Assembly: GCA_965215185.1 (NCBI GenBank) | Contig: OZ244034.1 | Location: 2,336,001-2,400,000, forward strand | From: Acidimicrobiia bacterium | GTDB lineage: Bacteria; Actinomycetota; Acidimicrobiia; Spongiisociales; ZC4RG35 | Reading direction: 5' to 3' | DNA length: 64,000 bases | In this document: in pieces, positions 3,697 to 64,000 of the stretch | Layout: each line of letters begins with the position of its first letter | Numbering within the stretch: position 1 is the stretch's first letter | Notes under the pieces: model-generated | What the model was told of the DNA's origin: nothing | Seen by the model: only the letters and a program-made list of their open reading frames with translations | The model's database searches: none | Translations under genes and position numbers: made by a program

Positions 3697-4355
3697 GACG
3701 CCCCTATAGTCAAATTTTGGGTTTAGGGGGTGGTGTGTTGTCGGGTTTTGTGGTCGGTCATGACGCGTTGGTAGACCTCGCGGGCGAGGAAGCGTTTCAG
3801 GCAGCGGATGATGTCCTTTTTTGAGAGGCCCTGGGCGGTGCGACGAGCGACGTAGTCGATGGTGGGCTAGTGGAATCGCATTCGTACTATCGCTACTCGG
3901 TACAGCGCCGCGTTGGCTTGACGGTGCCCGCCTCTGTATAGACGATGCCTGTTGGTCTGTGCGGAGGAAGCCGGAATCGGACACGTGCCACAGAGTTTGG
4001 CGAATGCGGCCTCGGAACGGATCCGTTCGGGGTTGTCACCGAACACGATGAGAAGCTCCGCCGCGGAATCGGCTCCGATGCCAAAGCCGTCTCGCAGTGT
4101 TGGGGAGGCTTGGGCGGTGAGGTCGTCGAGCACGGTGTCGTGGGAGCGGATCTCGGTGTCGAGGTGGAGCCAGCGGCGTGCTAGTGCTCTTGAGTGAGTA
4201 CTTGGCGGAGGCTGTGGGGGTGTTGATCACCGAGACCCGAAAGCGTGCGCAACGGTTGATGAGCGCTTTGTTAGAAAGCCCATCGAGGGATTCGCGCAGC
4301 TCGGCCGGGGTGTTGACGATGATTGCCTTGAGGGTGATGATCGCCGAGGTTCGGC
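3697..4355 (-). mobile_element. IS110-family element D: 3' half of recombinase (pseudogene) plus right end
   Basis: FGDNPERIRSEAAFAKLCGTCPIPASS...RHRLYRGGHRQANAAL; in-frame TAG at 3867-3869; right end TTGACTATAGGGGCGTC abuts IS3 codons AAC GCC. Confidence 0.85.
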
Positions 4356-4790
4356 GAGCCTGTATACATGTCTGTGTGAGGTGGGTTCTTTATTGCTGTG
4401 GCTGGTGTGAGAGCCGGTCCGAGAGGAGAGTGTTTTGATGCCTATTGAACATGATGTGACGGAGGCGGCTGTGGTGGCTGCTGGTGTGGTGTCTGATGAG
4501 GTGGTGGAGGCGGTGGTTTCGGACGCTGCTGCTGGTGGTGTGGACCTTCTGGGTCCTGATGGGGTGTTGGCTGAGTTGACGAAGCGGATTCTGGAACGTG
4601 CTTTGGCTGAGGAGATGACCGATCATCTGGGCTATGAGTCCGGTGATCCGATGGGTCATGGTACGGGTAAGAACCGTAACGGGTCCTCTCCCAAACAGGT
4701 GCTGACTAAAGATCGGCGCGGTGGATTTGGACATTCCACGGGACCGTAACGCTACGTTCGAACCGAGGATCGTTCCCAAGGGCGCCCGGC
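4356..4790 (+). mobile_element. IS256-family element: left end and 5' part of transposase (frameshifted)
   Basis: End GAGCCTGTATACATGTCTGTGTGAG; LLGPDGVLAELTKRILERALAEEMTDHLGY...RNG and DIPRDRNATFEPRIVPKG. Confidence 0.9.
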
Positions 4791-5230
4791 GCCGTAGCTG
4801 CCGGTGCCTTCCACCCCAACCCGCACCACACGACCCTGGGATCTCAACCAGCCGCCCAGTTCCTCAAAGCCGGTTGCATCGGCCGGGAACGGAGCGGTTC
4901 CCAGGACTCGACCGGCGGTGTCCACTACCGCCGCGACATGACAATCGCGATGGGTGTCCACCCCGCCAAACACCTCAACCAGGCTCTCTTTTTGTGACAT
5001 GAATGTCTTCTTCTTCCTTGGATAGACTCGCGGGTATCACCGGACCGGAAGCGGTGGACAGAACACTCATGATGGTGTGGAGAAGCAAGGCTCCTATAAG
5101 GTCACATCCGCTCCCGGGTCGGGGAGTGTCCCCAGGCCGAAAGCAGGCCGACAGATCATGATAAGGCACAAACGGCCAGTTTGTCAAGGGGTCAGACCCG
5201 CCCCGACCAGGGACCCCACCATTATCGAGT
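4783..5230 (-). mobile_element. IS110-family element C: left end, bridge-RNA region and recombinase N-terminus
   Basis: ORF from 5000: FGGVDTHRD...GVEGTGSYGAG; left end ACTCGATAAT at 5230; fused to IS256 through the microhomology cccggcgc. Confidence 0.85.
5045..5215 (-). ncRNA. Putative IS110-C bridge RNA (left target guide TTGACAAAC at 5187-5179, right target guide CATG, donor guides ATAGGAGC and GAGTG)
   Basis: Scaffold aligns with the A1 and A2 non-coding ends; variable segments fall at the guide positions; boundaries approximate. Confidence 0.75.
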
Positions 5231-5589
5231 GTTTTGCAAATCGCTTTTCGGGGGTGGGGGTTGTTTGAGCTTTTTGGTGGGGTGGTTTGGGGTTGGGGCG
5301 AGTTCTGGGGGTTTAGTGGGGGGTTTTCCAGTAGCCGGTAGAGGTGGCGGGCGATGTACCGTTTGAGGCAGCGTCGTGCTTCGCGGGTGGTTTTTCCTTG
5401 GCTGATGCGTTTGGCTATGTAGGCCTGGGTTTTGGGACAGTGGCGGGTGCGGGTGATGGCCATGTTGTGGAGCGCGCGGTTGAGTTGGCGGTCACCGCGT
5501 CGGTTGAGTCGGTGGCGGGTGCGTTGCCCTGAGGAGGCTTGGAGGGGTGCTACGCCGGCTAGCCGAGCGAAGGCGGCTTCGTTACGGCA

Positions 5590-5766
5590 GCGGCAGCGTC
5601 CGAAACCACCGCCTCCACCACCTCATCAGACACCACACCAGCAGCCACCACAGCCGCCTCCGTCACATCATGTTCAACAGGCATCACAACACTCTCCTTT
5701 CGGGCCGGCTCTCACACCAGCCACAGCAATAGAGAACCCACCTCACACAGACATGTATACAGGCTC
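5590..5766 (-). mobile_element. Second IS256 left-end fragment, inverted relative to the 4356 copy
   Basis: Reverse complement of roughly 4356-4530 with few differences. Confidence 0.9.
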
Positions 5767-6249
5767 GGTTTGAGCGCCTCGGCGGACGGTTTCCAGTACC
5801 CGCAGGGCTTCTCGGTCTCCCCGAGCGCGGGGAGCCGAAAGCCGGGAGCGTCCCAGCGCCTGGCGGGCGGCTCGTCGAGCGTCCAACGCGTCGGTTTTGG
5901 CGCCGTCGCGGGTCGGGTGGGGATGGCCGAACTCTATTACCCATTCACCAGCCTCAGAAAGGTAGTCGGTGACTCCTGCTCCGTAGCTACCGGTTCCTTC
6001 CACCACCCACGCTCGTTCCGCGGATGTGTGCTGGTTTGTCCACTCCAACAGTTGAGCATATCCCATGCTGGTTGTCCCAAAGCGCGCAGATGTCAACTCT
6101 CCGGTGGTGGCAGTGTCCACTACCGAAGCGGTGATCCAGTCACGGTCAGGGCCTATTCCTATCGTATGTTTTACCATCTCGGCTAGCATCGTATTTGTTC
6201 CTCTTTTCTGGTGTTACCGGTTAGAGCTGGCGTACCCCCGAGGAGCGGC

Positions 6250-6460
6250 AACCGTTACGGCAGACCTGTGATGGGTCACACCCATTTGGGTGGACAGGCT
6301 TCTGATCAGGCCAGCAACGAAGCACCCAGGCGGGCGCAGCGAAGGGTGTCGGACACATCGATTTGAAGACACGGACCGGTCGGTAAAGACAGAAACGGTC
6401 AGGGTTTTGGAGGGTCACGACACCACCGCTGCGCCTAGCCTGGCAGACTCTGAGAGCACC
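6250..6460 (-). ncRNA. Putative IS110-B2 bridge RNA (left target guide CCAAAACCC at 6410-6402, right target guide CAAATCGA at 6365-6358)
   Basis: Scaffold aligns with the B1 left end; donor guides AGAAGC and CACAG conserved; boundaries approximate. Confidence 0.78.
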
Positions 6461-6462
6461 CC

Positions 6463-7686
6463 CTACATACTCACAGGGTTTGGTGCGGTGAGCCATTGGT
6501 GGTATCGGGTGGCGAGTTGGTGGTTGTGGTAGAGGCCTCGTTCGAGTTGTGAGAGGCGGTTTGGGTGGGCGTGGACGGCTGTGGCGGCCTGAGCGAGAGT
6601 GGTCCGGGTTTTTTGGCGTAAACAGCGTAGATCGGCGCCGTTGGGTGTTGAGGGTGGGTCGGTCAACAGTCGGTAGACCTGGCGGGCGATGTGGCGTTTC
6701 AGACAGCGGATGATCTCTCGGCGGGTTTTGCCTTCCGCCCGGCGTTTTTCGACGTATTCGATGGTGGTCTGGTCGCAGCGCATCCGAGTGGTGGCGATCC
6801 GCCACAAAGCGTTGTTGGCTTGGCGGTCGCCACCGCGGTTGAGGCGATGGCGCACAGGTCCTGAGGATGCCTGGACGGGACTGGCGCCGCACAACGCCGC
6901 GAAGGAAGCTTCCGATCTCATGCGTTCGGGGTTGTCACCAGCTGCGACCAATAAGGCGGCGGCGGTGTCCGGGCCGATCCCTGTGGTGGCCAACAGCGCC
7001 GGGTTGGCCCGGGCGCAGAGATCTTTGATCCGGGTGTCGAGTTCTCCGATCTCTGCGGTGAGGGTCTGGTATCTGCGGGCCAAGAGACGGAGGACATGTT
7101 TGGCGTAGGTGATGGTGGTGTCACCATCACCCGGACGAAAACCGGCACAGACCTTCCCGCGGGCTTTGGGGGAGAGCCCCCGAAGTTGGTGTTTGACCTG
7201 GTCGGGAGCAGTGACCACCAGGGCGTGCAGCTGGTTGATGGCCTGGGTACGGGCCTTGATCGCCGAACGGTGGGCCACTGTCAGCATCCGTATTGCTTCT
7301 ACTGGTCCGTTCCCGCTTTTGGGCAACCCGGTGGCCTGCCCGTTCAAAGCAGCCCGCGCCGCTGCCCGGGCGTCTGTGACATCGGTCTTGCCGAAGCGGC
7401 GGCGTAACTGGCGGTTGGGCCGGTTCACTTCCACCACCTCAACACCAATGCTCATAAGGTGGCGGGTCAGGCCGGCGCCGTAGCTGCCGGTGCCCTCCAC
7501 CCCGACCCGCACAACACGACCCAGGGACCCCAACCAGTTGTTCAACCGTTCATAACCGGCGACATCGGCCCGAAACGGCGCCGAGCCAAGGACCCGACCG
7601 GTGGCATCCACCACCGCCGCGACATGGGTATCACGGTGGGTGTCGACCCCACCAAACACAATCCGATCATCCTCTGACATATGCAT
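6463..7686 (-). CDS. IS110 recombinase A1 with C-terminal XRE-type HTH extension
   Basis: DEDD residues (GVDTH, GVEGTG, KTDVTDA), ASSG serine, RHRLNRGGDRQAN; tail DLRCLRQKTRTTLAQAATAVHAHPNRLSQLERG; last codons come from the B2 end. Confidence 0.92.
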   Translation of the reverse strand: MHMSEDDRIVFGGVDTHRDTHVAAVVDATGRVLGSAPFRADVAGYERLNNWLGSLGRVVRVGVEGTGSYGAGLTRHLMSIGVEVVEVNRPNRQLRRRFGKTDVTDARAAARAALNGQATGLPKSGNGPVEAIRMLTVAHRSAIKARTQAINQLHALVVTAPDQVKHQLRGLSPKARGKVCAGFRPGDGDTTITYAKHVLRLLARRYQTLTAEIGELDTRIKDLCARANPALLATTGIGPDTAAALLVAAGDNPERMRSEASFAALCGASPVQASSGPVRHRLNRGGDRQANNALWRIATTRMRCDQTTIEYVEKRRAEGKTRREIIRCLKRHIARQVYRLLTDPPSTPNGADLRCLRQKTRTTLAQAATAVHAHPNRLSQLERGLYHNHQLATRYHQWLTAPNPVSM

Positions 7687-7753
7687 CTTCTCCTTCAAAG
7701 GTAGAATTCGTTTCTGTTCTCTCTGACCCGAAAAAACGGTGGACAGACCACTC

Positions 7754-9153
7754 TGTGAGTATTGGGGGGGCCTTGTAGAGGCTGCCAGGATTGGCGTCAG
7801 CGGTGGTGTCGTGACCCGAGACCACTCTGACCTTTGTGTCTTTGCCGTGATATGTCCGACACCGCCGCGACGCCCCTGGGCGTTCCGTTGCTGGCCTGAT
7901 CAGAAGCTTGTCCACCCATGGGGTGTGACTCATCACAGTCCTGCCGTCACGGTTTGCGCCTTGTGAGGCACTAGCCCAGTTCGCACAAGAAAGAGAAGGT
8001 TTCTTATGTTGGCCACAATGGTAGAGCATGTGATCGGGATCGATCCTGATCGTGACCGGGTCACCGCCGCGGTAGTAGACACTTCCACCACCGGAGAACA
8101 AGCGACTGCGGTGTTCGGAACCACCCGGCTGGGATATGACCGGTTGTTGAAATGGGCAGACCAGCACACTCAGACGGCTGAGCGGGTGTGGTCGGTGGAA
8201 GGCTCGGGCAGTTACGGAGCAGGCGTGACCACCTATCTCGCTGCCCGAGGTGAACTAGTGGTGGAGTTCAACGATCCCACCCCTACCCGCGACGGCGCCA
8301 AAACCGACGCACTGGACGCTCGGCGGGCCGCTCGCCAGGTGCTGGGCCGTCCTTGGCCATCTGTCCCGCGGGCTAGGGGAGACCGCGAAGCCTTGCGAGT
8401 GTTGGAGACCACCCGCCAGGGCGCCCAAGGGGCCAGAGTATCGGCCATCAACCAGCTAAAAGCCCTGGTAGTGACCGCGCCAGTCGATCTTCGGGACCAA
8501 CTCCGAGGTCTGAGCACAACTGCTCTGGTGGCCAAGTGCGCGGCGTTTCGAATCCGACCCGCCTCCGTCAACGAACTGACCGCCACCAAACAAGCCCTAC
8601 GTTCTACAGCCAGACGCATCCGCAACCTCAACAATGAAATAGCAGAGCTGAAAACGCCCATCGCCGAAATGGTCACAGCCGCAGCTCCGCAACTGCTCGA
8701 CCAATTCGGGATTGGTCCGGTCACCGCCGCCCAAGTGTTCATCGCCTGGTCCCACCCAGGCCGATGCCGCAACGAGGCCGCGTTCGCTCGCCTGGCCGGC
8801 GTAGCACCCCTCCAAGCCTCCTCTGGACAACAAACCCGCCACCGGCTAAGCCGCTACGGCGACCGCCAACTCAACCGCGCCCTCCACACCATCGCTATCA
8901 CCCGCGCTCGGGACTGCCCCAAAACCCGGGCCTACATCGCCAAACGCATCAGCCAAGGAAAAACCACCCGAGAAGCCCGCCGCTGCCTCAAACGGTACAT
9001 CGCCCGCCACCTCTACCGACTCCTACAAAACCCGCCCCCAACCCCGGCCGAACCAGCCCCACCGTTCCACTCGGAAACGCCGCAACACCCCCACAAGCTC
9101 AAACATCCTCAAATCCCCGCCAAAAGCCTCGATTTGGAGAACATAGAAGCATC
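7754..9153 (+). mobile_element. IS110-family element B1, apparently complete, TC core at both junctions
   Basis: ...AGACCACTC|TGTGAGTATT...CATAGAAGCATC|ACATGG; removing it restores the A-type non-coding end. Confidence 0.92.
7770..7960 (+). ncRNA. Putative IS110-B1 bridge RNA (left target guide AGACCACTC 7819-7827, right target guide GTGA 7847-7850, donor guides AGAAGC 7902-7907 and CACAG 7934-7938)
   Basis: All four guide segments match the observed target and the reconstructed circle junction; boundaries approximate. Confidence 0.85.
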
Positions 9154-9292
9154 ACATGGCAAGAGCAAGGCTCCTATCAGGTCACAGCCGCCCTGTCGGG
9201 AGAGCACCGCCCCCAGGCCGGAAGCAGGCCGACAGATCACCACAAAGGCACAACAGCCAGGTCGGAGTCGAGTCAGACCCGCCCCGGCCTAG
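8006..9292 (+). CDS. IS110 recombinase B1 (ORF reads through the right end into flanking DNA)
   Basis: GIDPDRD, VEGSGSYG, KTDALDA, APLQASSG, RHRLSRYGDRQLNRAL. Confidence 0.92.
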   Translation: MLATMVEHVIGIDPDRDRVTAAVVDTSTTGEQATAVFGTTRLGYDRLLKWADQHTQTAERVWSVEGSGSYGAGVTTYLAARGELVVEFNDPTPTRDGAKTDALDARRAARQVLGRPWPSVPRARGDREALRVLETTRQGAQGARVSAINQLKALVVTAPVDLRDQLRGLSTTALVAKCAAFRIRPASVNELTATKQALRSTARRIRNLNNEIAELKTPIAEMVTAAAPQLLDQFGIGPVTAAQVFIAWSHPGRCRNEAAFARLAGVAPLQASSGQQTRHRLSRYGDRQLNRALHTIAITRARDCPKTRAYIAKRISQGKTTREARRCLKRYIARHLYRLLQNPPPTPAEPAPPFHSETPQHPHKLKHPQIPAKSLDLENIEASHGKSKAPIRSQPPCRESTAPRPEAGRQITTKAQQPGRSRVRPAPA

Positions 9293-9300
9293 GGGCACCT
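9154..9300 (-). ncRNA. 5' part of the putative A1 bridge RNA (left target guide TCGACTCCGACC at 9271-9260, right target guide GGTG); continues at 7753-7735
   Basis: Near-identical scaffold to 61855-61990 with different guide segments. Confidence 0.8.
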
Positions 9301-9312
9301 ATAAGTATGAGT

Positions 9313-9845
9313 GGTTGGAGTCGACGTGGACGGGCGTAAACATGTGCTGGGGGTATGGCTGGGCGACGGCGGTGAAGGCGCCAAATACTGGTTGTCGGTA
9401 CTTACCGAGATACGCAACCGAGGCCTCGAAGACGCGCTGATCGTGTGCTGTGACGGCCTGAAAGGGCTCCCGGACGCGATCGAGGCGACATGGCCCCAGG
9501 CGCTGGTGCAGACCTGTGTGATCCACCTGCTGCGAGCCTCTATGCGGCTCTGCAGTTGGAAAGACCGAAAAACCATTGTGGCGGGCTTGCGACGCGTTTA
9601 CACCGCGGTAAACGCCGAAGCCGCTGTTGAGGCGTTGGACGAGCTCGAGGAACAATGGGGAAATCACTATCCCGGCGTTATACGAATATGGCGCCAGGCG
9701 TGGGAAGAGTTCACCCCGTTCCTGCGGTTCCCGCCAGAGCTTCGCAAGGTCGTGTACACAACCAACGTCGTCGAAAGCGTCCACTATCAACTACGGAAAG
9801 TCACCAAAACCAGGGGGCATTTCCCCACCGACCAATCCGCCCTCG
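9313..9845 (+). mobile_element. IS256-family transposase middle/C-terminal fragment (continuation of the 4356 element)
   Basis: VGVDVDGRKHVLGVW...CCDGLKGLPDAI...QTCVIHLLR...YTTNVVES...RGHFPTDQSAL. Confidence 0.9.
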
Positions 9846-9989
9846 CACTTGGATCGCGCCTCGCCCAACAGCATCCAAATGCTGGGGCCGAGCGAGTTGA
9901 TATCGGTGGCCTTGAAAGTGATCCACGGGTGGGACTTCAGATAGGAGCGCACAAGTGCCGCTCTACTATCGGTATATTGTTTTGACCAT
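9846..9989 (-). pseudogene. Short N-terminal remnant resembling a Fic-family protein
   Basis: YLKSHPWITF...IWMLLGEARSKCE, recalled as a Fic-family N-terminus; no Fic motif left. Confidence 0.5.
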
Positions 9990-41084: not shown

Positions 41085-41158
41085 GCGGGTGTAGTTCAAT
41101 GGTAGAACACGAGCTTCCCAAGCTCGGAGTGGGGGTTCGATTCCCCTCACCCGCTCCA
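41085..41158 (+). tRNA. tRNA-Gly (CCC)
   Basis: GCGGGTG acceptor stem, anticodon arm CGAGC-TTCCCAA-GCTCG, GGTTCGATTCC T-arm, encoded CCA. Confidence 0.96.
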
Positions 41159-60383: not shown

Positions 60384-60510
60384 CCCCGCACCCAAACTGG
60401 GCACCGCCCGCCCACCAACAGCCGGACCGTCGATCAACGCTCGTTCCTAGCGGCCCGGCATCCAGGCCGGGGCTTGATCGGCGTAGTCGTTGTCGATGCT
60501 CCTATGGTTG

Positions 60511-61772
60511 TCAAATCGAGTTTTGGTGGGGTGTGAGGGCGGTGAGCCATTGGTGGTATTGGGTGGCGAGTTGATGGTTGTGGTAGATGCCTCGCTCGAG
60601 TTGTGAGAGGCGTACTGGGTAGGTTTGTAGGGCTGTGGCGGCGTGGGTGAGGGTTGTTAGCGCGTTTTTGCGTAGACAGCGAAGATGGGCGCCGTTGGGA
60701 GTTTCGGGTGGATTGGTGAGCAGGTGGTAGATCTGGCGGGCGATGTGGCGTTTCAGGCAGCGGATGATCTCCCGGCGGTTTTTGCCTTCTGTTTGTCTTT
60801 TTTGGGCGTAGGCGATGGTGGTCTGGTCGTAGCGCATGCGGGTGATGGCGATCCGCCACAGGGCATTGTTGGCTTGGCGGTTGCCGCCCCGGTTGAGACG
60901 GTGGCGTATGGTCCGTCCCGACGACGCCTGGACGGGACTGGCGCCGCACAATGCTGCGAAGGACGCTTCCGATTGCATGCGTTCGGGGTTGTCACCAGCG
61001 GTGACCAACAGGGCAGCGGCGGTGTCGGCGCCGACTCCGGAGGCGGCTAACAGCGCCGGTGTCGGCGCCGACTCCGGAGGCGGCTAACAGCGCCTGGGCG
61101 CAGAGATGGTTGATCTGGGTGGTGAGCTCTTCGATCTCGGCGGTGAGCGCCTGATATCGGCGGGCCAGGGAACGCAGCGCCTTTTTGGCGTAGGTGACGG
61201 TGATGGTGGCTGTTCGGGGACGGAAACCGGCGCAGGCCTTGACGCGGGCTTTGGCCGGCAGTCCCCCCAGTTGGTGTTTGACCTGGTCGGGGGCGGTTAC
61301 CACCAAAGCGTGCAGCTGGTTTATGGCCTGGGTGCGGGCTTTGGTCGCCGAACGGCGGGCCACCGAAAGCATCCGTATTGCTTCCACCCGACCGTTGCCG
61401 CTTTTGGGCACCGCAGTGGCCTGTCCGTTGAGAACCGCCCGTGCCGCTCCTTGGGCGTCGGTGGCGTCGGTCTTGCCCAACCGGCGGCGCAACTGCCGGT
61501 TGGGACGGTTCACCTCTGTCACCTCGACACCGGCCTCGGTTAGATAACGGGCCAGGCCGGCGCCGTAACTGCCCGTGCCCTCTATACCGACCCGGACCAC
61601 TCGACCGTGTGACCCCAACCAGTCGCCCAGTTGCTGATAACCGGCCTGCATCGGCCACGAAGGAGGCTGTTCCCAAGACCCGACCGGTGCTGTCCACCAC
61701 CACCGCCATATGAACATCCCGGTGGGTGTCCACCCCACCAAACACAATCCGATCATCCTTTGACATATGCAT
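60511..61772 (-). pseudogene. IS110 recombinase A2 with C-terminal HTH; frameshift near 61650 and a 37-bp duplication
   Basis: Three frames homologous to A1; tandem 37-mer at 61021-61057 and 61058-61094. Confidence 0.9.
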
Positions 61773-61809
61773 CTTCTCCTCTCAAAGGTAGAATTCGTTT
61801 CTGTTCTCC

Positions 61810-61990
61810 ACTGACCCGAAAAAGCGGTGGACAGACCACTCAGAATGAGGGAGAAGCAAAGCTCCTATCAGGTCACAGCCGCTCTGTCGGGAGAGCACCG
61901 CCCCCAGACCGAAGGCGGGCCGACAGATCGACTCAAAGGCACAATCGGCCAGGTAGCTGTCGGGTCAGACCCGCCCCGGCCTGGGGGCAC
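61810..61990 (-). ncRNA. Putative IS110-A2 bridge RNA (left target guide GACAGCTACC at 61961-61952, right target guide GTCG, donor guides ATAGGAGC and TGAGTG)
   Basis: Guides match the flanks GACAGCTAACC|GAC and the circle junction ATAGGAGCATC|ACTCA; boundaries approximate. Confidence 0.82.
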
Positions 61991-64000
61991 CTATAAGTAT
62001 GAGTGGTTAGCTGTCTCAGGTTGCTGCCATCCGCATACATGACAAAGATCTCATCATCACCGTTAAGATCACTGGTGAAGGCAATTGCATAGCCATCCGG
62101 GGACCACACAGGACCACGGTCATCAGCGTCGTTGTCGGTGAGTCGCTGCTTGTTGGACCCGTCCGCGTCCATCACATAGATCTCATCATCACCGTCACGG
62201 TTACTGGTAAAGGCCACGCGGGTCCGATCCGGTGACCACACCATCCCATCTGCCGGGCTGTAGTTGTTGTCGGCCAAGGCTTGCGGCTCGCCCCCCTCCA
62301 CATTCACTGCGAATAGCCCGAAGTTACGACCGCGGGCATTGGCTACATACAACTGCCCACCATCCAGAAACCAGACAAATCCTTCCACCGAAGTGGTGTC
62401 GTCGGTGAGCTGCCGAACATATCGGCCTTGGTCTCCCACCACAAATACCTCCAGGTCGAAGCCGGAACCCCGACTGGTGAAAGCAATTGTGGCACTGTCG
62501 GGCGCCCAAGTTGGATCCCACACCTGATAGTCACTGTCGGTCATTTGGTACAGGTTGCCGCCAACCGGATCCACCACAAAGATCTCACTGTCCCGGCCCC
62601 GGCTGCCCAGAAAAGCTATCCACATGCCGTTGGGAGACCACACCGGCCCAGTGTCATTGTCGTTGTTGTAGGTGAGTTGCTGCTGATTGGCGCCGTCATC
62701 ATCCATCAGGAGAATCTCGCTTCGGTAGGAGCGGGTGAAGGCGATGGTCTTGCCGTCAGGCGACCAGGCCTGTTCGCTTTCAGCAATGTGGTTGCTGGTG
62801 AGTTGTCGACGCGTCCCACCTTCGGCCTCTACCACGAAGATCTCGGTGTCACTGCCCAAAACGCCCTGATAGGCCACATACTTGCCGTCGGGGGACCATT
62901 CGGGATGGCTGTCCTGGATAGAGTCATCGGTGATTTGCTGTAGGTTGCCACCATCAGAATCCACTACAAAGATGTCTCCATGCAGGGAGAAGGTAATCCG
63001 CTTGCTGTCAGGCGACCACGCCGGATAGGCACCGTGTACAAGGAGGCGCGGGTTTCCGCCGTCCGAATCCATCAGAAAAATATTTGAATGGCTATAGAAG
63101 GCGATGGTTGTGCCGTCAGGCGACCACGCCAACGCCCAATCGCTGTAATCGTTGTCGGTGAGTTGTCGATCGTTAGTACCGTCCGAATCTATCAAGTAGA
63201 TCTCGGCGTTGGGATCTCCCTGAGGGTGACTGTGGTAGGCGATTCGCTTACCATCCGGTGACCAAATCAGGTCATCGATGGAAGCCCTTGGGACAGTTGG
63301 CGCAGATCCCCGCCATCGGCATTAACCACGAAGAGATCCCCCGAAGAGACAAAAGCGACTTGGGTGCCGTCAGGCGACCACGCCGGAAGCCGACCACTGG
63401 CAAGATATTGCTTGCCTTCCCCATCCGCATCAATAGCGAAGATCTCACCCCGGCTGTGGAATACAATTCGAGAACCGTCAGGCGACCACGCCGGGTCGTC
63501 TCCGTGAGTCAGGATTCGGTGATTGCTGCCGTCAGCATCCATTACCACTGCGTCATCATCCTGTCCGCGGGTGTCGTACCTGGTGAAAGCGATCCGCATC
63601 TTGGCTTGTTCAGCAACCGCGTAATCCGCAACCGGCAGGGCAACCAGACCCAGAGAACGGGCCAGGAATGTGGCCATCTCCCCTCGGGTCACCGGAACCT
63701 CGGGACAGAATCTCGCCGGGTCAGTGGCACACCCTCGCGTAACATTGGCGGCCGCCAAAGAGTCGATGCTCCCCGCGTGAGTGTTGCCCACGGTGTCAAC
63801 AAACCGGCGGAAGCAGCGGGGCGCAGACCCATGGCGCGGACGAGGAATGTTGCCATCTGCCCACGACTCACGAAAGCATCGGGACAGAACTTCTCCGGAT
63901 CGGCGCTGCGACCTTTGGTTAGACCCAACTCGGCCAGCCTTTCCACATACGGTGCCCACCACTGTCCGGCGTCCACATCCGCGAATCGCGAGGAAATCAC

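What the first reader, a model, noticed from the sequence alone, without database searches (positions are those of the whole stretch)
6358..6484. IS110-B2 guide spells the right end of A-type elements, and an unoccupied near-perfect site exists 54 kb away
Seen: B2 left guide CCAAAACCC plus right guide CAAATCGA predict a target CCAAAAC(C/T)CGATTTG. The intact A2 right end reads CCAAAACTCGATTTGACA (minus strand 60526-60509): 8/9 on the left and 8/8 on the right. B2 is inserted at the homologous point of A1 (ACCAAACCC|), just before the stop codon and -35 box. The right-guide match extends well past four nucleotides. B2's target loop also has an insert of about 25 nt that B1 lacks. Same scaffold as B1, different guide, same victim family.
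Basis: partly seen in the sequence, partly recalled or inferred. Interest (0 to 1): 0.85.

Follow-up and report, generated by a model that had tools for sequence, protein, structure and literature searches.

The report
Bridge RNA aimed at sibling IS110 tails
A broken IS110 insertion sequence still carries a guide RNA whose two guide segments spell a site in the right-end tail of a sister IS110 family, the place where it sits; this is the known bridge-RNA mechanism pointed at another mobile element.

Summary
B2 (window 5768-6475, minus strand) is the 5' part of a B-type IS110 element. It lies inside the right end of an A-type IS110 element, A1.

Its leader folds as a two-loop bridge RNA. The left target guide is CCAAAACCC (6402-6410). 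The right target guide is CAAAUCGA (6358-6365).

In 36 B-type copies from this genome and its relatives, the guides track the flanks:
- The left guide matches its own left flank at 7.6 of 9 bases, against 3.85 of 9 for other copies' flanks.
- The bases 5' of a fixed GA predict the right flank in 18 of 27 copies.

So B2 should insert at CCAAAAC(C/T)C|GATTTG. The exact 15-mer occurs three times in the 3.1-Mb genome, always in A-type right-end tails. One of these is window 60512-60526.

B2's own right junction is lost. Support for it comes from two short B2-like left-end remnants elsewhere, which sit at the homologous point and are followed by GATTTGACA.

Caveats:
- B2 is truncated and is the only copy found with this guide.
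- A2's recombinase gene is broken.
- The free sites carry TC where the guide and all occupied sites carry CC.
- The extra loop segment is 21 nt, not 25.

Verdict: the mechanism is known and the target class is new. Interest is moderate.

The parts
6258..6445 (-). B2 bridge RNA: target-binding loop followed by donor-binding loop
   Evidence: Covariance model R1 scores it at 148.6 bits, E 9e-40.
6402..6410 (-). Left target guide CCAAAACCC (7 nt plus 2 core-position nt), on the 5' side of the target-binding loop
   Evidence: The homologous columns match the left flank in 36 copies, mean 7.61 of 9.
6358..6366 (-). Right target guide UCAAAUCGA, on the 3' side of the loop. It ends in the family-invariant GA and is complementary to TCGATTTGA.
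   Evidence: The homologous columns predict the right flank in 18 of 27 copies.
6376..6396 (-). B2-specific 21-nt extra segment in the cap hairpin between the two target guides
   Evidence: Alignments. The distance from the TGACC motif after the left guide to the GAT anchor (cap plus right guide) is 37 nt in B2 and 16-22 nt in the other 35 copies.
6296..6303 (-). Left donor guide AGAAGCCU. It matches the B-type right-end terminus AGAAGCAT(C).
   Evidence: these columns are conserved.
6265..6273 (-). Right donor guide CAUCACAG. Its TCACAG is complementary to C+TGTGA at the left-end start.
6446..6475 (-). B2 left-end terminus (TGTGAGTATG...). The first 24 nt recur exactly at genome position 971187-971210.
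6476..6484 (-). Occupied left target: A1 right-end bases ACCAAACCC next to B2
   Evidence: They match the left guide at 7 of 9 without gaps.
5768..6189 (-). B2 recombinase remnant: 148-aa ORF at 5743-6189, RuvC-like DEDD domain only
   Evidence: It is 72% identical to B1 and 80% to Bd.
5588..5767 (-). Inverted 180-nt copy of the left end of an IS256-like element. It cuts the B2 gene.
   Evidence: inverted repeat with 4355-4534, 97% complementary.
5235..5587 (-). B-type 3' fragment, probably B2's own 3' part. Its tail is cut after GATTTGCA by the A3 left end (junction known to within 2 nt).
   Evidence: It has the same orientation and order as the B2 5' part, and Bd is the closest relative of both.
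4786..5234 (-). A3: 5' part of an A-type IS110. Its left guide, CUUGACAAAC, spells the -35 region of right-end tails.
6476..7753 (-). A1, an A-type IS110 body. The 411-aa ORF at 6463-7698 runs 4 codons into B2.
9154..9316 (-). Outer part of A1's left end, separated from the rest by B1
7754..9153 (+). B1, a full-length B-type IS110. Its 428-aa ORF at 8006-9292 reads past the element's end.
60512..60526 (-). Free predicted B2 site CCAAAACTCGATTTG in the A2 right-end tail
60495..62008 (-). A2, an A-type IS110 with intact ends and a broken ORF

Best explanation
**What B2 is.** B2 is a decayed B-type IS110-family element. [quoted passage not shown] **How the site is read.** The left guide has the sense of the top strand left of the crossover. 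The right guide is antisense to the core plus GATTTGA. The donor-binding loop recognises B's own ends (right end ...AGAAGCATC, left end TGTGAG...).

**What follows from the crossover point.**
- Recombination puts B2 six bases before A's stop codon and before A's TTGACA -35 box.
- B2 lands in the same orientation as A's gene.
- A's terminal 23 nt stay intact.

**What was shown.** The fold, the guide positions, the family-wide agreement of guides with flanks, the left junction, and the site's restriction to IS tails.

**What is inferred.**
- A1 carried GATTTG at the junction. This rests on homology with the 11 other right-end tails aligned.
- The B2 RNA could still act with a B-type recombinase supplied in trans.
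- Sitting in another IS is advantageous: a harmless multi-copy site, read-through transcription, and hitch-hiking.
For: 1. **Proteins.** B1 and A1 carry DEDD_Tnp_IS110 plus Transposase_20. B2 keeps only the DEDD domain.
2. **Structure.** Single folds and alignment folds give two stem-enclosed internal loops.
   - With 8 sequences, 9 of 62 pairs show compensatory changes.
   - With 27 sequences, 16 of 35 pairs do.
   - The guide columns of the first loop vary. Those of the second loop are conserved and match the element's ends.
3. **Rule across 36 copies.** These are 8 copies in this genome and 28 from relatives.
   - The 9-nt left guide matches its own left flank at a mean of 7.61 of 9. Against flanks of copies with a different guide the mean is 3.85.
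   - The right flank predicted from the 6 nt before the fixed GA matches 3 or more contiguous bases in 18 of 27 copies. In cross-pairs the figure is 6.3%.
4. **B2's left junction.** ACCAAACCC|TGTGAG lies at the point homologous to ...CCAAAACTC|GATTTG of other A-type tails.
5. **The predicted 15-mer.** It has 3 exact and 6 one-mismatch places in 3.1 Mb, and all 9 are in A- or B-type right-end tails.
6. **Independent occupancy of the same point.**
   - Genome position 971187: the 24 nt identical to B2's left end are followed by GATTTGACAACCATAGG.
   - The right end of the full-length A3-type copy: CAACAAAACCC, then a 22-nt diverged B2-like left end, then GATTTGACA. A close relative at 1612714 lacks the insert.
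   - Genome position 370983: a B-type right end ...ATAGAAGCATC is joined to GATTTGACAACC.
   - Genome G002: a B-type right end is joined to AATTTGCAAAGAATAGGAGCATCG.
7. **Weak hint of RNA.** Two metatranscriptome runs from one study hold short contigs (209 and 170 nt) lying on 6250-6452 and 6290-6460, with the guide bases unchanged. They give almost no cover elsewhere in 5500-6800.
Against: - **Right junction lost.** B2's gene is cut by an IS256-like end at 5767/5768, and the probable 3' part is cut by A3. The right-guide pairing is therefore not seen for B2 itself.
- **Imperfect left match.** The left guide matches the actual flank at only 7 of 9 without gaps. A1 has one A fewer.
- **Core mismatch at the free sites.**
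  - The three exact free sites read TC at the core, where the left guide reads CC.
  - All three occupied or remnant sites read CC.
  - The last two bases of the left guide equal those of the flank in 29 of 36 copies (my count from the table).
  - The free sites may therefore be second-best targets.
- **Guide-less support.** The remnants and the B right ends next to GATTTG have lost their guides, so assigning them to a B2-type guide is indirect.
- **No second copy with this guide**.
- **Unexplained remnants.** How the 22-24-nt remnants arose is not known.
- **Limits of the RNA evidence.** RNA contigs do not prove transcription, strand or ends, and both runs come from one study.
- **No curated RNA family.** No Rfam family matched at gathering score. 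The only hit in the window was a tRNA.
Confidence: 0.8

Rival explanations
1. B2 reached A1 through an off-target or donor-arm-only ('half-match') event, and the right guide's match to GATTTG in A-type tails is coincidence.
For: - The left guide matches the real flank at only 7 of 9.
- A preprint reports that half-match recombination accounts for about half of non-target insertions of IS621 (10.64898/2026.08.31.748434, abstract read).
- Stacked right-end tails in this genome resemble the left-donor-only tandem units described in 10.64898/2026.08.14.744561 (passages read).
Against: - An 8-9-nt antisense match sits exactly next to a 7-8-nt sense match, at the homologous point of the very element B2 sits in.
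- All 3 exact and 6 one-mismatch genome hits lie in IS tails, against about 0.01 exact hits expected by my arithmetic for a 15-mer with one two-fold position on both strands of 3.1 Mb.
- The family rule places the right guide in exactly these columns.
Confidence: 0.07
2. The working right guide of B2 is the inner UUUACCGA (6387-6380). CAAAUCGA would then be part of a disabled, duplicated loop, and B2's true target would lie elsewhere.
For: - The loop holds two similar units, GACCGTTTCTGTCTTTACC and GACCGGTCCGTGTCTTCAAATC.
- Each unit is followed by GA, which looks like a duplication of the cap plus right guide.
Against: - CAAAUCGA occupies the position next to the closing stem, directly before the conserved U-N-UGUCCGAC. 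All 35 other copies carry their flank-matching guide there.
- A target built from the inner unit has 0 exact genome hits. Its 3 one-mismatch hits are not in IS tails.
- Tandem Repeats Finder does not call a repeat here, so the duplication itself is uncertain.
Confidence: 0.05
3. The many junctions between B right ends and A tails, and the tail-on-tail stacks, come mainly from local expansion of occupied IS110 loci (donor-arm recombination, tandem duplication). They are not guide-directed insertions, so they do not support the B2 reading.
For: - Tails are stacked directly on tails, for example ...ATAGGAGCATC|CTAGGAGCATCGG and ...GCATC|ATAGGAGC.
- The copy Be is flanked by an 8-bp repeat, AATTTGAC, which a simple guided insertion does not predict.
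- Preprint 10.64898/2026.08.14.744561 describes recurrent insertion into occupied IS110 loci and left-donor-retaining tandem units.
Against: - The two remnants keep a precise B left-end boundary next to a left flank resembling the guide (CAACAAAACCC| and CTCCAAACACGCC|).
- This rival does not touch B2's own guide-to-site match. It only weakens the guide-less supporting cases.
Confidence: 0.15

Closest known systems
IS621 and other IS110-group elements with a bridge RNA (Durrant et al. 2024, PMC11208160; passages read)
   Same: - A DEDD/RuvC-like domain plus a Tnp domain in the recombinase.
- A non-coding RNA in the left end, upstream of the gene.
- A first internal loop with a 9-nt left target guide in the sense of the target and a right target guide antisense to it, overlapping at the core.
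- A second loop matching the element's own ends.
- A -35-like box in the right-end tail.
- Right guides longer than 4 nt are reported for some orthologues.
   Different: - **Core.** The donor end is ...GCATC in 26 of 27 copies. The target-side first core base follows the left guide (AC, TC or CC), so the target core and the donor core often differ at the first position.
- **Right-guide length.** It is 5-8 nt here and 8-9 nt for B2.
- **Cap hairpin.** B2 has a 21-nt extra segment.
- **Target.** The target is the tail of a sister IS110 family, not a REP sequence.
- **Curated family.** No Rfam family matched.
IS1383, which targets the inverted repeats of IS1384, and IS4321/IS5075, which target the terminal repeats of Tn21-family transposons. 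I saw only the titles, in the reference list of PMC11208160.
   Same: IS110/IS1111-family elements whose specific target is the end of another mobile element.
   Different: - Those victims belong to unrelated families. Here the victim is a sister IS110 lineage with a homologous right-end tail.
- The targeting here appears mutual: the left guide of A3-type elements spells the TTGACA region of A and B tails.
- I did not read those papers.
Expanded or recurrently occupied IS110 loci (bioRxiv 10.64898/2026.08.14.744561; passages read)
   Same: Repeated insertion into already occupied IS110 loci, tandem tail units, and no target immunity.
   Different: In the passages I read, that work explains expansion by local and half-matched donor-arm events. 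Here a target-loop guide pair spells the sister element's tail.

Membership tests
IS110 family (IS110 group) insertion sequence | Recombinase with an N-terminal DEDD RuvC-like domain and a C-terminal Tnp (Transposase_20) domain | tested here: met
   B1 scores PF01548 at 7e-13 and PF02371 at 1e-18, and A1 carries both. B2 retains only PF01548 (1e-10) because it is truncated.
IS110 family (IS110 group) insertion sequence | Ends without terminal inverted repeats, and insertion without a target duplication other than the shared core | tested here: inconclusive
   For Bd, removing TGTGAG...GCATC restores the uninterrupted A-type gene sequence. However, Be is flanked by an 8-bp repeat, AATTTGAC. I ran no formal search for inverted repeats at the B ends.
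Bridge RNA (IS110-type guide RNA) | A structured RNA upstream of the recombinase gene, with two stem-enclosed internal loops | tested here: met
   In one search, 27 sequences give 16 of 35 pairs with compensatory changes. B2 scores 148.6 bits against model R1.
Bridge RNA (IS110-type guide RNA) | First loop: the left guide matches the sense of the left flank | tested here: met
   mean 7.61 of 9 over 36 copies, against 3.85 in cross-pairs. B2 scores 7 of 9 against its own flank and 8 of 9 against the A2 tail.
Bridge RNA (IS110-type guide RNA) | First loop: the right guide is antisense to the core plus the right flank | tested here: inconclusive
   Met for the family: 18 of 27 copies match 3 or more contiguous bases, against 6.3% in cross-pairs. 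For B2 itself the right junction is lost. Two remnants and one B right end show GATTTGACA at that point.
Bridge RNA (IS110-type guide RNA) | Second loop: the guides match the element's own right-end and left-end termini | tested here: met
   The left donor guide AGAAGC(C/U)U matches the right end AGAAGCAT. The right donor guide UCACAG matches C+TGTGA of the left end. These columns are conserved in 27 sequences.
Bridge RNA (IS110-type guide RNA) | The RNA binds the recombinase and directs recombination | not testable with these tools
   This needs biochemistry. The only data are RNA-library contigs over 6250-6460.
Any curated Rfam family | A match at the family's gathering score | tested here: not met
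   the only hit in the 64-kb window is a tRNA at 41085-41155.

The most novel reading that the evidence does not exclude
The A and B lineages of IS110 in this genome and genus form a mutual hyperparasitic network. Their bridge RNAs have been re-aimed at each other's conserved functional ends:
- B1-type guides aim at the donor-loop region in A's left end.
- B2-type guides aim 6 nt before A's stop codon and -35 box.
- A3-type guides aim at the TTGACA box of A and B tails.
- Many B cousins have a left guide ending in ATTTGAC.

Under this reading, new specificities arise by duplication of the cap-plus-right-guide module inside the target loop. Orphan bridge RNAs such as B2's stay expressed and are used in trans by the one remaining intact recombinase, B1.
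Probability: 0.25. Interest if true: 0.6.

Novelty: new member of a known kind. Interest (0 to 1): 0.4.

Why it matters
This is a clean natural example of bridge-RNA reprogramming between paralogues in one genome. The scaffold and the donor loop are the same, and the target guides differ. The outcome can be read at single-base resolution.

It shows three things:
- RNA-guided IS110 elements can use the conserved tail of a sister family as a multi-copy, harmless landing site.
- A target core need not equal the donor core at its first base in this lineage.
- A target loop tolerates a 21-nt extra hairpin segment.

For people engineering bridge recombinases, the family offers a set of natural guide and target pairs with 6-9-nt right guides. 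It also offers a possible orphan guide RNA that outlived its recombinase. It does not reveal a new mechanism.

Tried and rejected
**Searches for a second element with the B2 guide**
- Pattern GTGACCCNNCAAAACNCTGAC at up to 1 mismatch in 201 genomes of the family: only this genome.
- A similar pattern in genome contigs: 2 hits (inspected). Both lie in unrelated coding DNA.
- The same pattern in metagenome contigs: 1 hit (inspected), also unrelated.
- B2's 24-nt left end at up to 3 mismatches in 17 genomes of the genus: only this genome, at 2 places.

**Search for the right-junction string**
- ATAGAAGCATCGATTTG at up to 1 mismatch in 201 genomes gave hits in 4 genomes.
- The G088 and G248 hits show no IS context in the flanking sequence printed. 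I set them aside as chance or unclear.

**Other checks**
- Inner right guide (UUUACCGA): no exact target in the genome. Two one-mismatch hits lie inside a two-copy coding repeat. Inconclusive, and not pursued.
- Tandem Repeats Finder on 6300-6500: no repeat called. The idea that the loop insert is a duplication rests only on my reading of two similar units.
- Sigma-70 scan of 6100-7900: no promoter-like site. This is consistent with IS110 promoters forming only at the circle junction, but it proves nothing.
- Reads: DNA contigs of two further studies carry the same truncated B2, including the junction at 5767/5768. They gave no intact B2. Parts without RNA cover are not evidence of silence.
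- I did not test occupancy of the A2 site in other samples, because the A-type repeats break short-read contigs.
- I did not resolve how the 22-24-nt left-end remnants arose, why Be has an 8-bp flanking repeat, or whether 5235-5587 is really B2's own 3' part.

**Rows left out**
- In some searches, 5 of 41 sources (L013, L016, L023, L024, L060) did not match my anchor expressions and were dropped.
- Of the 36 copies kept, 9 lacked a recognisable right end.

**Papers and prior notes**
Supplementary Data 2 of PMC11208160 and the tables of 10.64898/2026.08.14.744561 may list related elements or IS-in-IS targets.
- In two literature searches (listings and abstract starts only) I found no description of bridge-RNA guides aimed at sister IS110 tails. 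This was not an exhaustive search.
- Genome G093 is flagged as unpublished. No claim here rests on it.
Full report
**Anatomy of the region**

Window 4355-9985 is a nest of insertion sequences built inside an IS256-like transposase gene. Its 5' part is at 4355-4786 and its 3' part starts at about 9317. Two IS110-family lineages are involved.

| Element | Position and strand | Notes |
|---|---|---|
| A1 | 6476-7753 plus 9154-9316, minus | Inserted in the IS256-like gene |
| B1 | 7754-9153, plus | Splits A1's left end |
| B2 | 5768-6475, minus | Sits in A1's right end |

- B2's gene is cut at 5767/5768 by an inverted 180-nt copy of the IS256-like left end.
- A B-type 3' fragment at 5235-5587 follows in the same orientation. 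It is probably B2's own 3' part. Its tail is cut after GATTTGCA by the left end of a third A-type element, A3 (4786-5234).
- A2 (60495-62008, minus) is a separate A-type copy 54 kb away. It has intact ends, but its gene is broken by a 37-nt tandem duplication.
- The genome is 3.12 Mb in one contig and holds many more A and B copies, often nested.

**The observation**

- The loop insert is 21 nt, not about 25.
- The A2 tail matches the left guide at 8 of 9 and the right guide at 8 of 8, extending to 9.
- The pattern CCAAAACYCGATTTG has one exact hit in the window. At up to two mismatches, 0.14 hits are expected.

**Is it a bridge RNA, and are these the target guides?**

- The B1 and B2 leaders each fold into two stem-enclosed internal loops.
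- An alignment of the 8 genomic copies gives the same consensus.
- A covariance model built from them finds the motif in 33 of 151 related genomes, including 12 of 16 in the same genus.
- A 27-sequence model alignment has compensatory changes in 16 of 35 pairs.
- The columns on the two sides of the first loop are hypervariable. Those of the second loop are conserved:
  - AGAAGC(C/U)U matches the B right end, ...AGAAGCATC.
  - UCACAG matches C+TGTGA at the left end.

This is the published architecture (PMC11208160, passages read). There, a 9-nt left target guide includes the core. The right target guide is 4 nt in IS621 and longer in some orthologues.

I then tested the rule directly on 36 copies (8 here and 28 from relatives; 5 further loci failed my anchors).
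- The left guide matches its own left flank at a mean of 7.61 of 9, against 3.85 for other copies' flanks.
- The 6 nt before an invariant GA predict 3 or more contiguous bases of the right flank in 18 of 27 copies, against 6.3% of cross-pairs.

B2's CCAAAACCC and CAAAUCGA lie in exactly these columns. The predicted target is therefore CCAAAAC-(C/T)C-GATTTG(A).

**Does the prediction fit where B2-type elements sit?**

- B2's left junction is ACCAAACCC|TGTGAG. In an alignment of 12 right-end tails, A1 leaves the alignment at the point where the other 11 rows carry GATTTG.
- The exact 15-mer occurs 3 times in the genome, and 6 more places have one mismatch. All 9 are in A- or B-type right-end tails.
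- B2's right junction is gone, and no other element with its guide was found.
- Three other loci in this genome show the same point occupied:
  - At 971187, 24 nt identical to B2's left end are followed directly by GATTTGACAACCATAGG.
  - In the right end of the full-length A3-type copy, CAACAAAACCC is followed by a diverged 22-nt B2-like left end and then GATTTGACA. A close relative lacks these 22 nt.
  - At 370983, a B-type right end is joined to GATTTGACAACC.
  - Sources for all three.
- A similar junction between a B right end and an A tail exists in genome G002.
- These cases have lost their guides, so the support is indirect. How the short remnants arose is unexplained.

**Limits**

- All three occupied or remnant sites have CC at the core, as B2's left guide does. 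The three exact free sites have TC.
- The left guide's last two bases equal the flank's in 29 of 36 copies (my count). The donor end is ...GCATC in 26 of 27 copies. In this lineage the first core base therefore follows the left guide, and the A2 site is probably a one-mismatch target, not a perfect one.
- B2 cannot move on its own. Of the 8 B copies with a leader in this genome, only B1 has a long ORF (428 aa); the others have 101-295 aa.
- No promoter-like site lies upstream of B2 in its present context.
- Two metatranscriptome runs from one study nevertheless hold whole short contigs (209 and 170 nt) on 6250-6452 and 6290-6460. This is almost exactly the modelled RNA, and the guide bases are unchanged. 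There is almost no cover elsewhere in 5500-6800. This is a weak hint of a stable RNA and no more.

**The extra loop segment**

- The 21 nt (6396-6376) lie in the cap hairpin between the guides. The conserved GAC/GUC cap pair and both guides stay in place.
- B2 is the only one of 36 copies with a long TGACC-to-GAT distance (cap plus right guide), and the only one of 27 aligned sequences with the insert.
- The loop can be read as two similar units, each followed by GA. This suggests a duplication of the cap plus right guide. Tandem Repeats Finder does not call it, and the inner unit gives no credible target.

**Comparison with what is known**

- The mechanism is the IS110 bridge-RNA mechanism.
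- IS110-family members that target the ends of other mobile elements are in print: IS1383 into IS1384 repeats, and IS4321/IS5075 into Tn21 repeats. I saw only their titles.
- Recurrent insertion into occupied IS110 loci and half-match events have been described in 2026 preprints.
- The new points here are these:
  - The target loop spells the tail of a sister IS110 family.
  - Different paralogues hit different conserved points of that family. B1-type guides hit the left end, in three independent insertions.
  - A3-type guides in turn spell the TTGACA region of A and B tails.
- I file this as a new member of a known kind, of moderate interest.

Noticed in passing
window 7738-7753 / 7754; genome 1324072; locus L041 (G003): B1-type guides (AGACCACUC) hit the same site, GGTGGACAGACC(A/G)CTC, in the left end of A-type elements in three separate insertions: B1 and Bg in this genome, and one copy in G003. 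The site lies in the part of A's leader that corresponds to the donor-loop cap, so the insertion should disable A's own guide RNA.
   Followed up: partly
window 5226-5242; genome 1097487-1097504: A3-type elements carry a left guide, CUUGACAAAC. They sit directly after GATTTG(A)CA in the tail of a B-type element (in the window) and of an A-type element (the full copy). So A-type elements also target the -35 region of sister tails.
   Followed up: partly
genome 971187-971210 and about 1096017-1096038 (locus L009): Remnants of a B2-like left end, 24 nt and 22 nt long and ending in GCTCTC, are fused directly to GATTTGACA of an A tail. The rest of the B element is gone. How they arose is unexplained; aberrant excision or a microhomology deletion are possibilities.
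   Followed up: partly
genome 978237-981130 (locus L008): The B-type copy Be is flanked on both sides by AATTTGAC and is preceded by another B right end. A simple guided insertion does not predict this 8-bp direct repeat.
   Followed up: no
window 4355-4534 and 5588-5767: A 180-nt inverted repeat, 97% complementary, formed by two copies of the left end of an IS256-like element. One copy cuts the B2 recombinase gene. About 330 nt of B sequence is missing between 5768 and 5587.
   Followed up: partly
window 61014-61094: A 37-nt tandem duplication (2.2 copies, 97% matches) frameshifts the A2 recombinase gene.
   Followed up: yes
genome-wide; for example 1096016, 1612714, 1621774, 1656997 and 1000641-1000682: Right-end tails are stacked on tails (...GCATC|ATAGGAGC......GCATC|CTAGGAGCATCGG). 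A-type tails also repeatedly abut G(T/C)(A/G)CGGTTCA. In one case the related sequence GTGCGATTCA after the tail runs on into what looks like an IS256-like end. IS ends seem to be the main landing sites for both lineages.
   Followed up: no
window 8006-9292: The B1 ORF has no stop codon inside the element. It reads through the right end at 9153 into A1's left end and stops at 9292. The proline-rich tail after the Tnp domain may be variable or non-functional.
   Followed up: no
loci L047-L055 (G012); L022 and L057-L059 (G008): In two relatives, B-type copies with left guides ending in GAUUUGAC or AAUUUGAC sit repeatedly after ACACAGA(C/G)(G/A)ATTTGAC and before A(G/A)GCCC. This is a recurrent host repeat of unknown nature. 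In G012, 2 of 9 copies instead sit in IS-tail-like CCAAA(A)C(G)CGATTTGAC|AAACA.
   Followed up: no
window 41085-41155: A tRNA gene, the only Rfam match in the window at gathering score.
   Followed up: no
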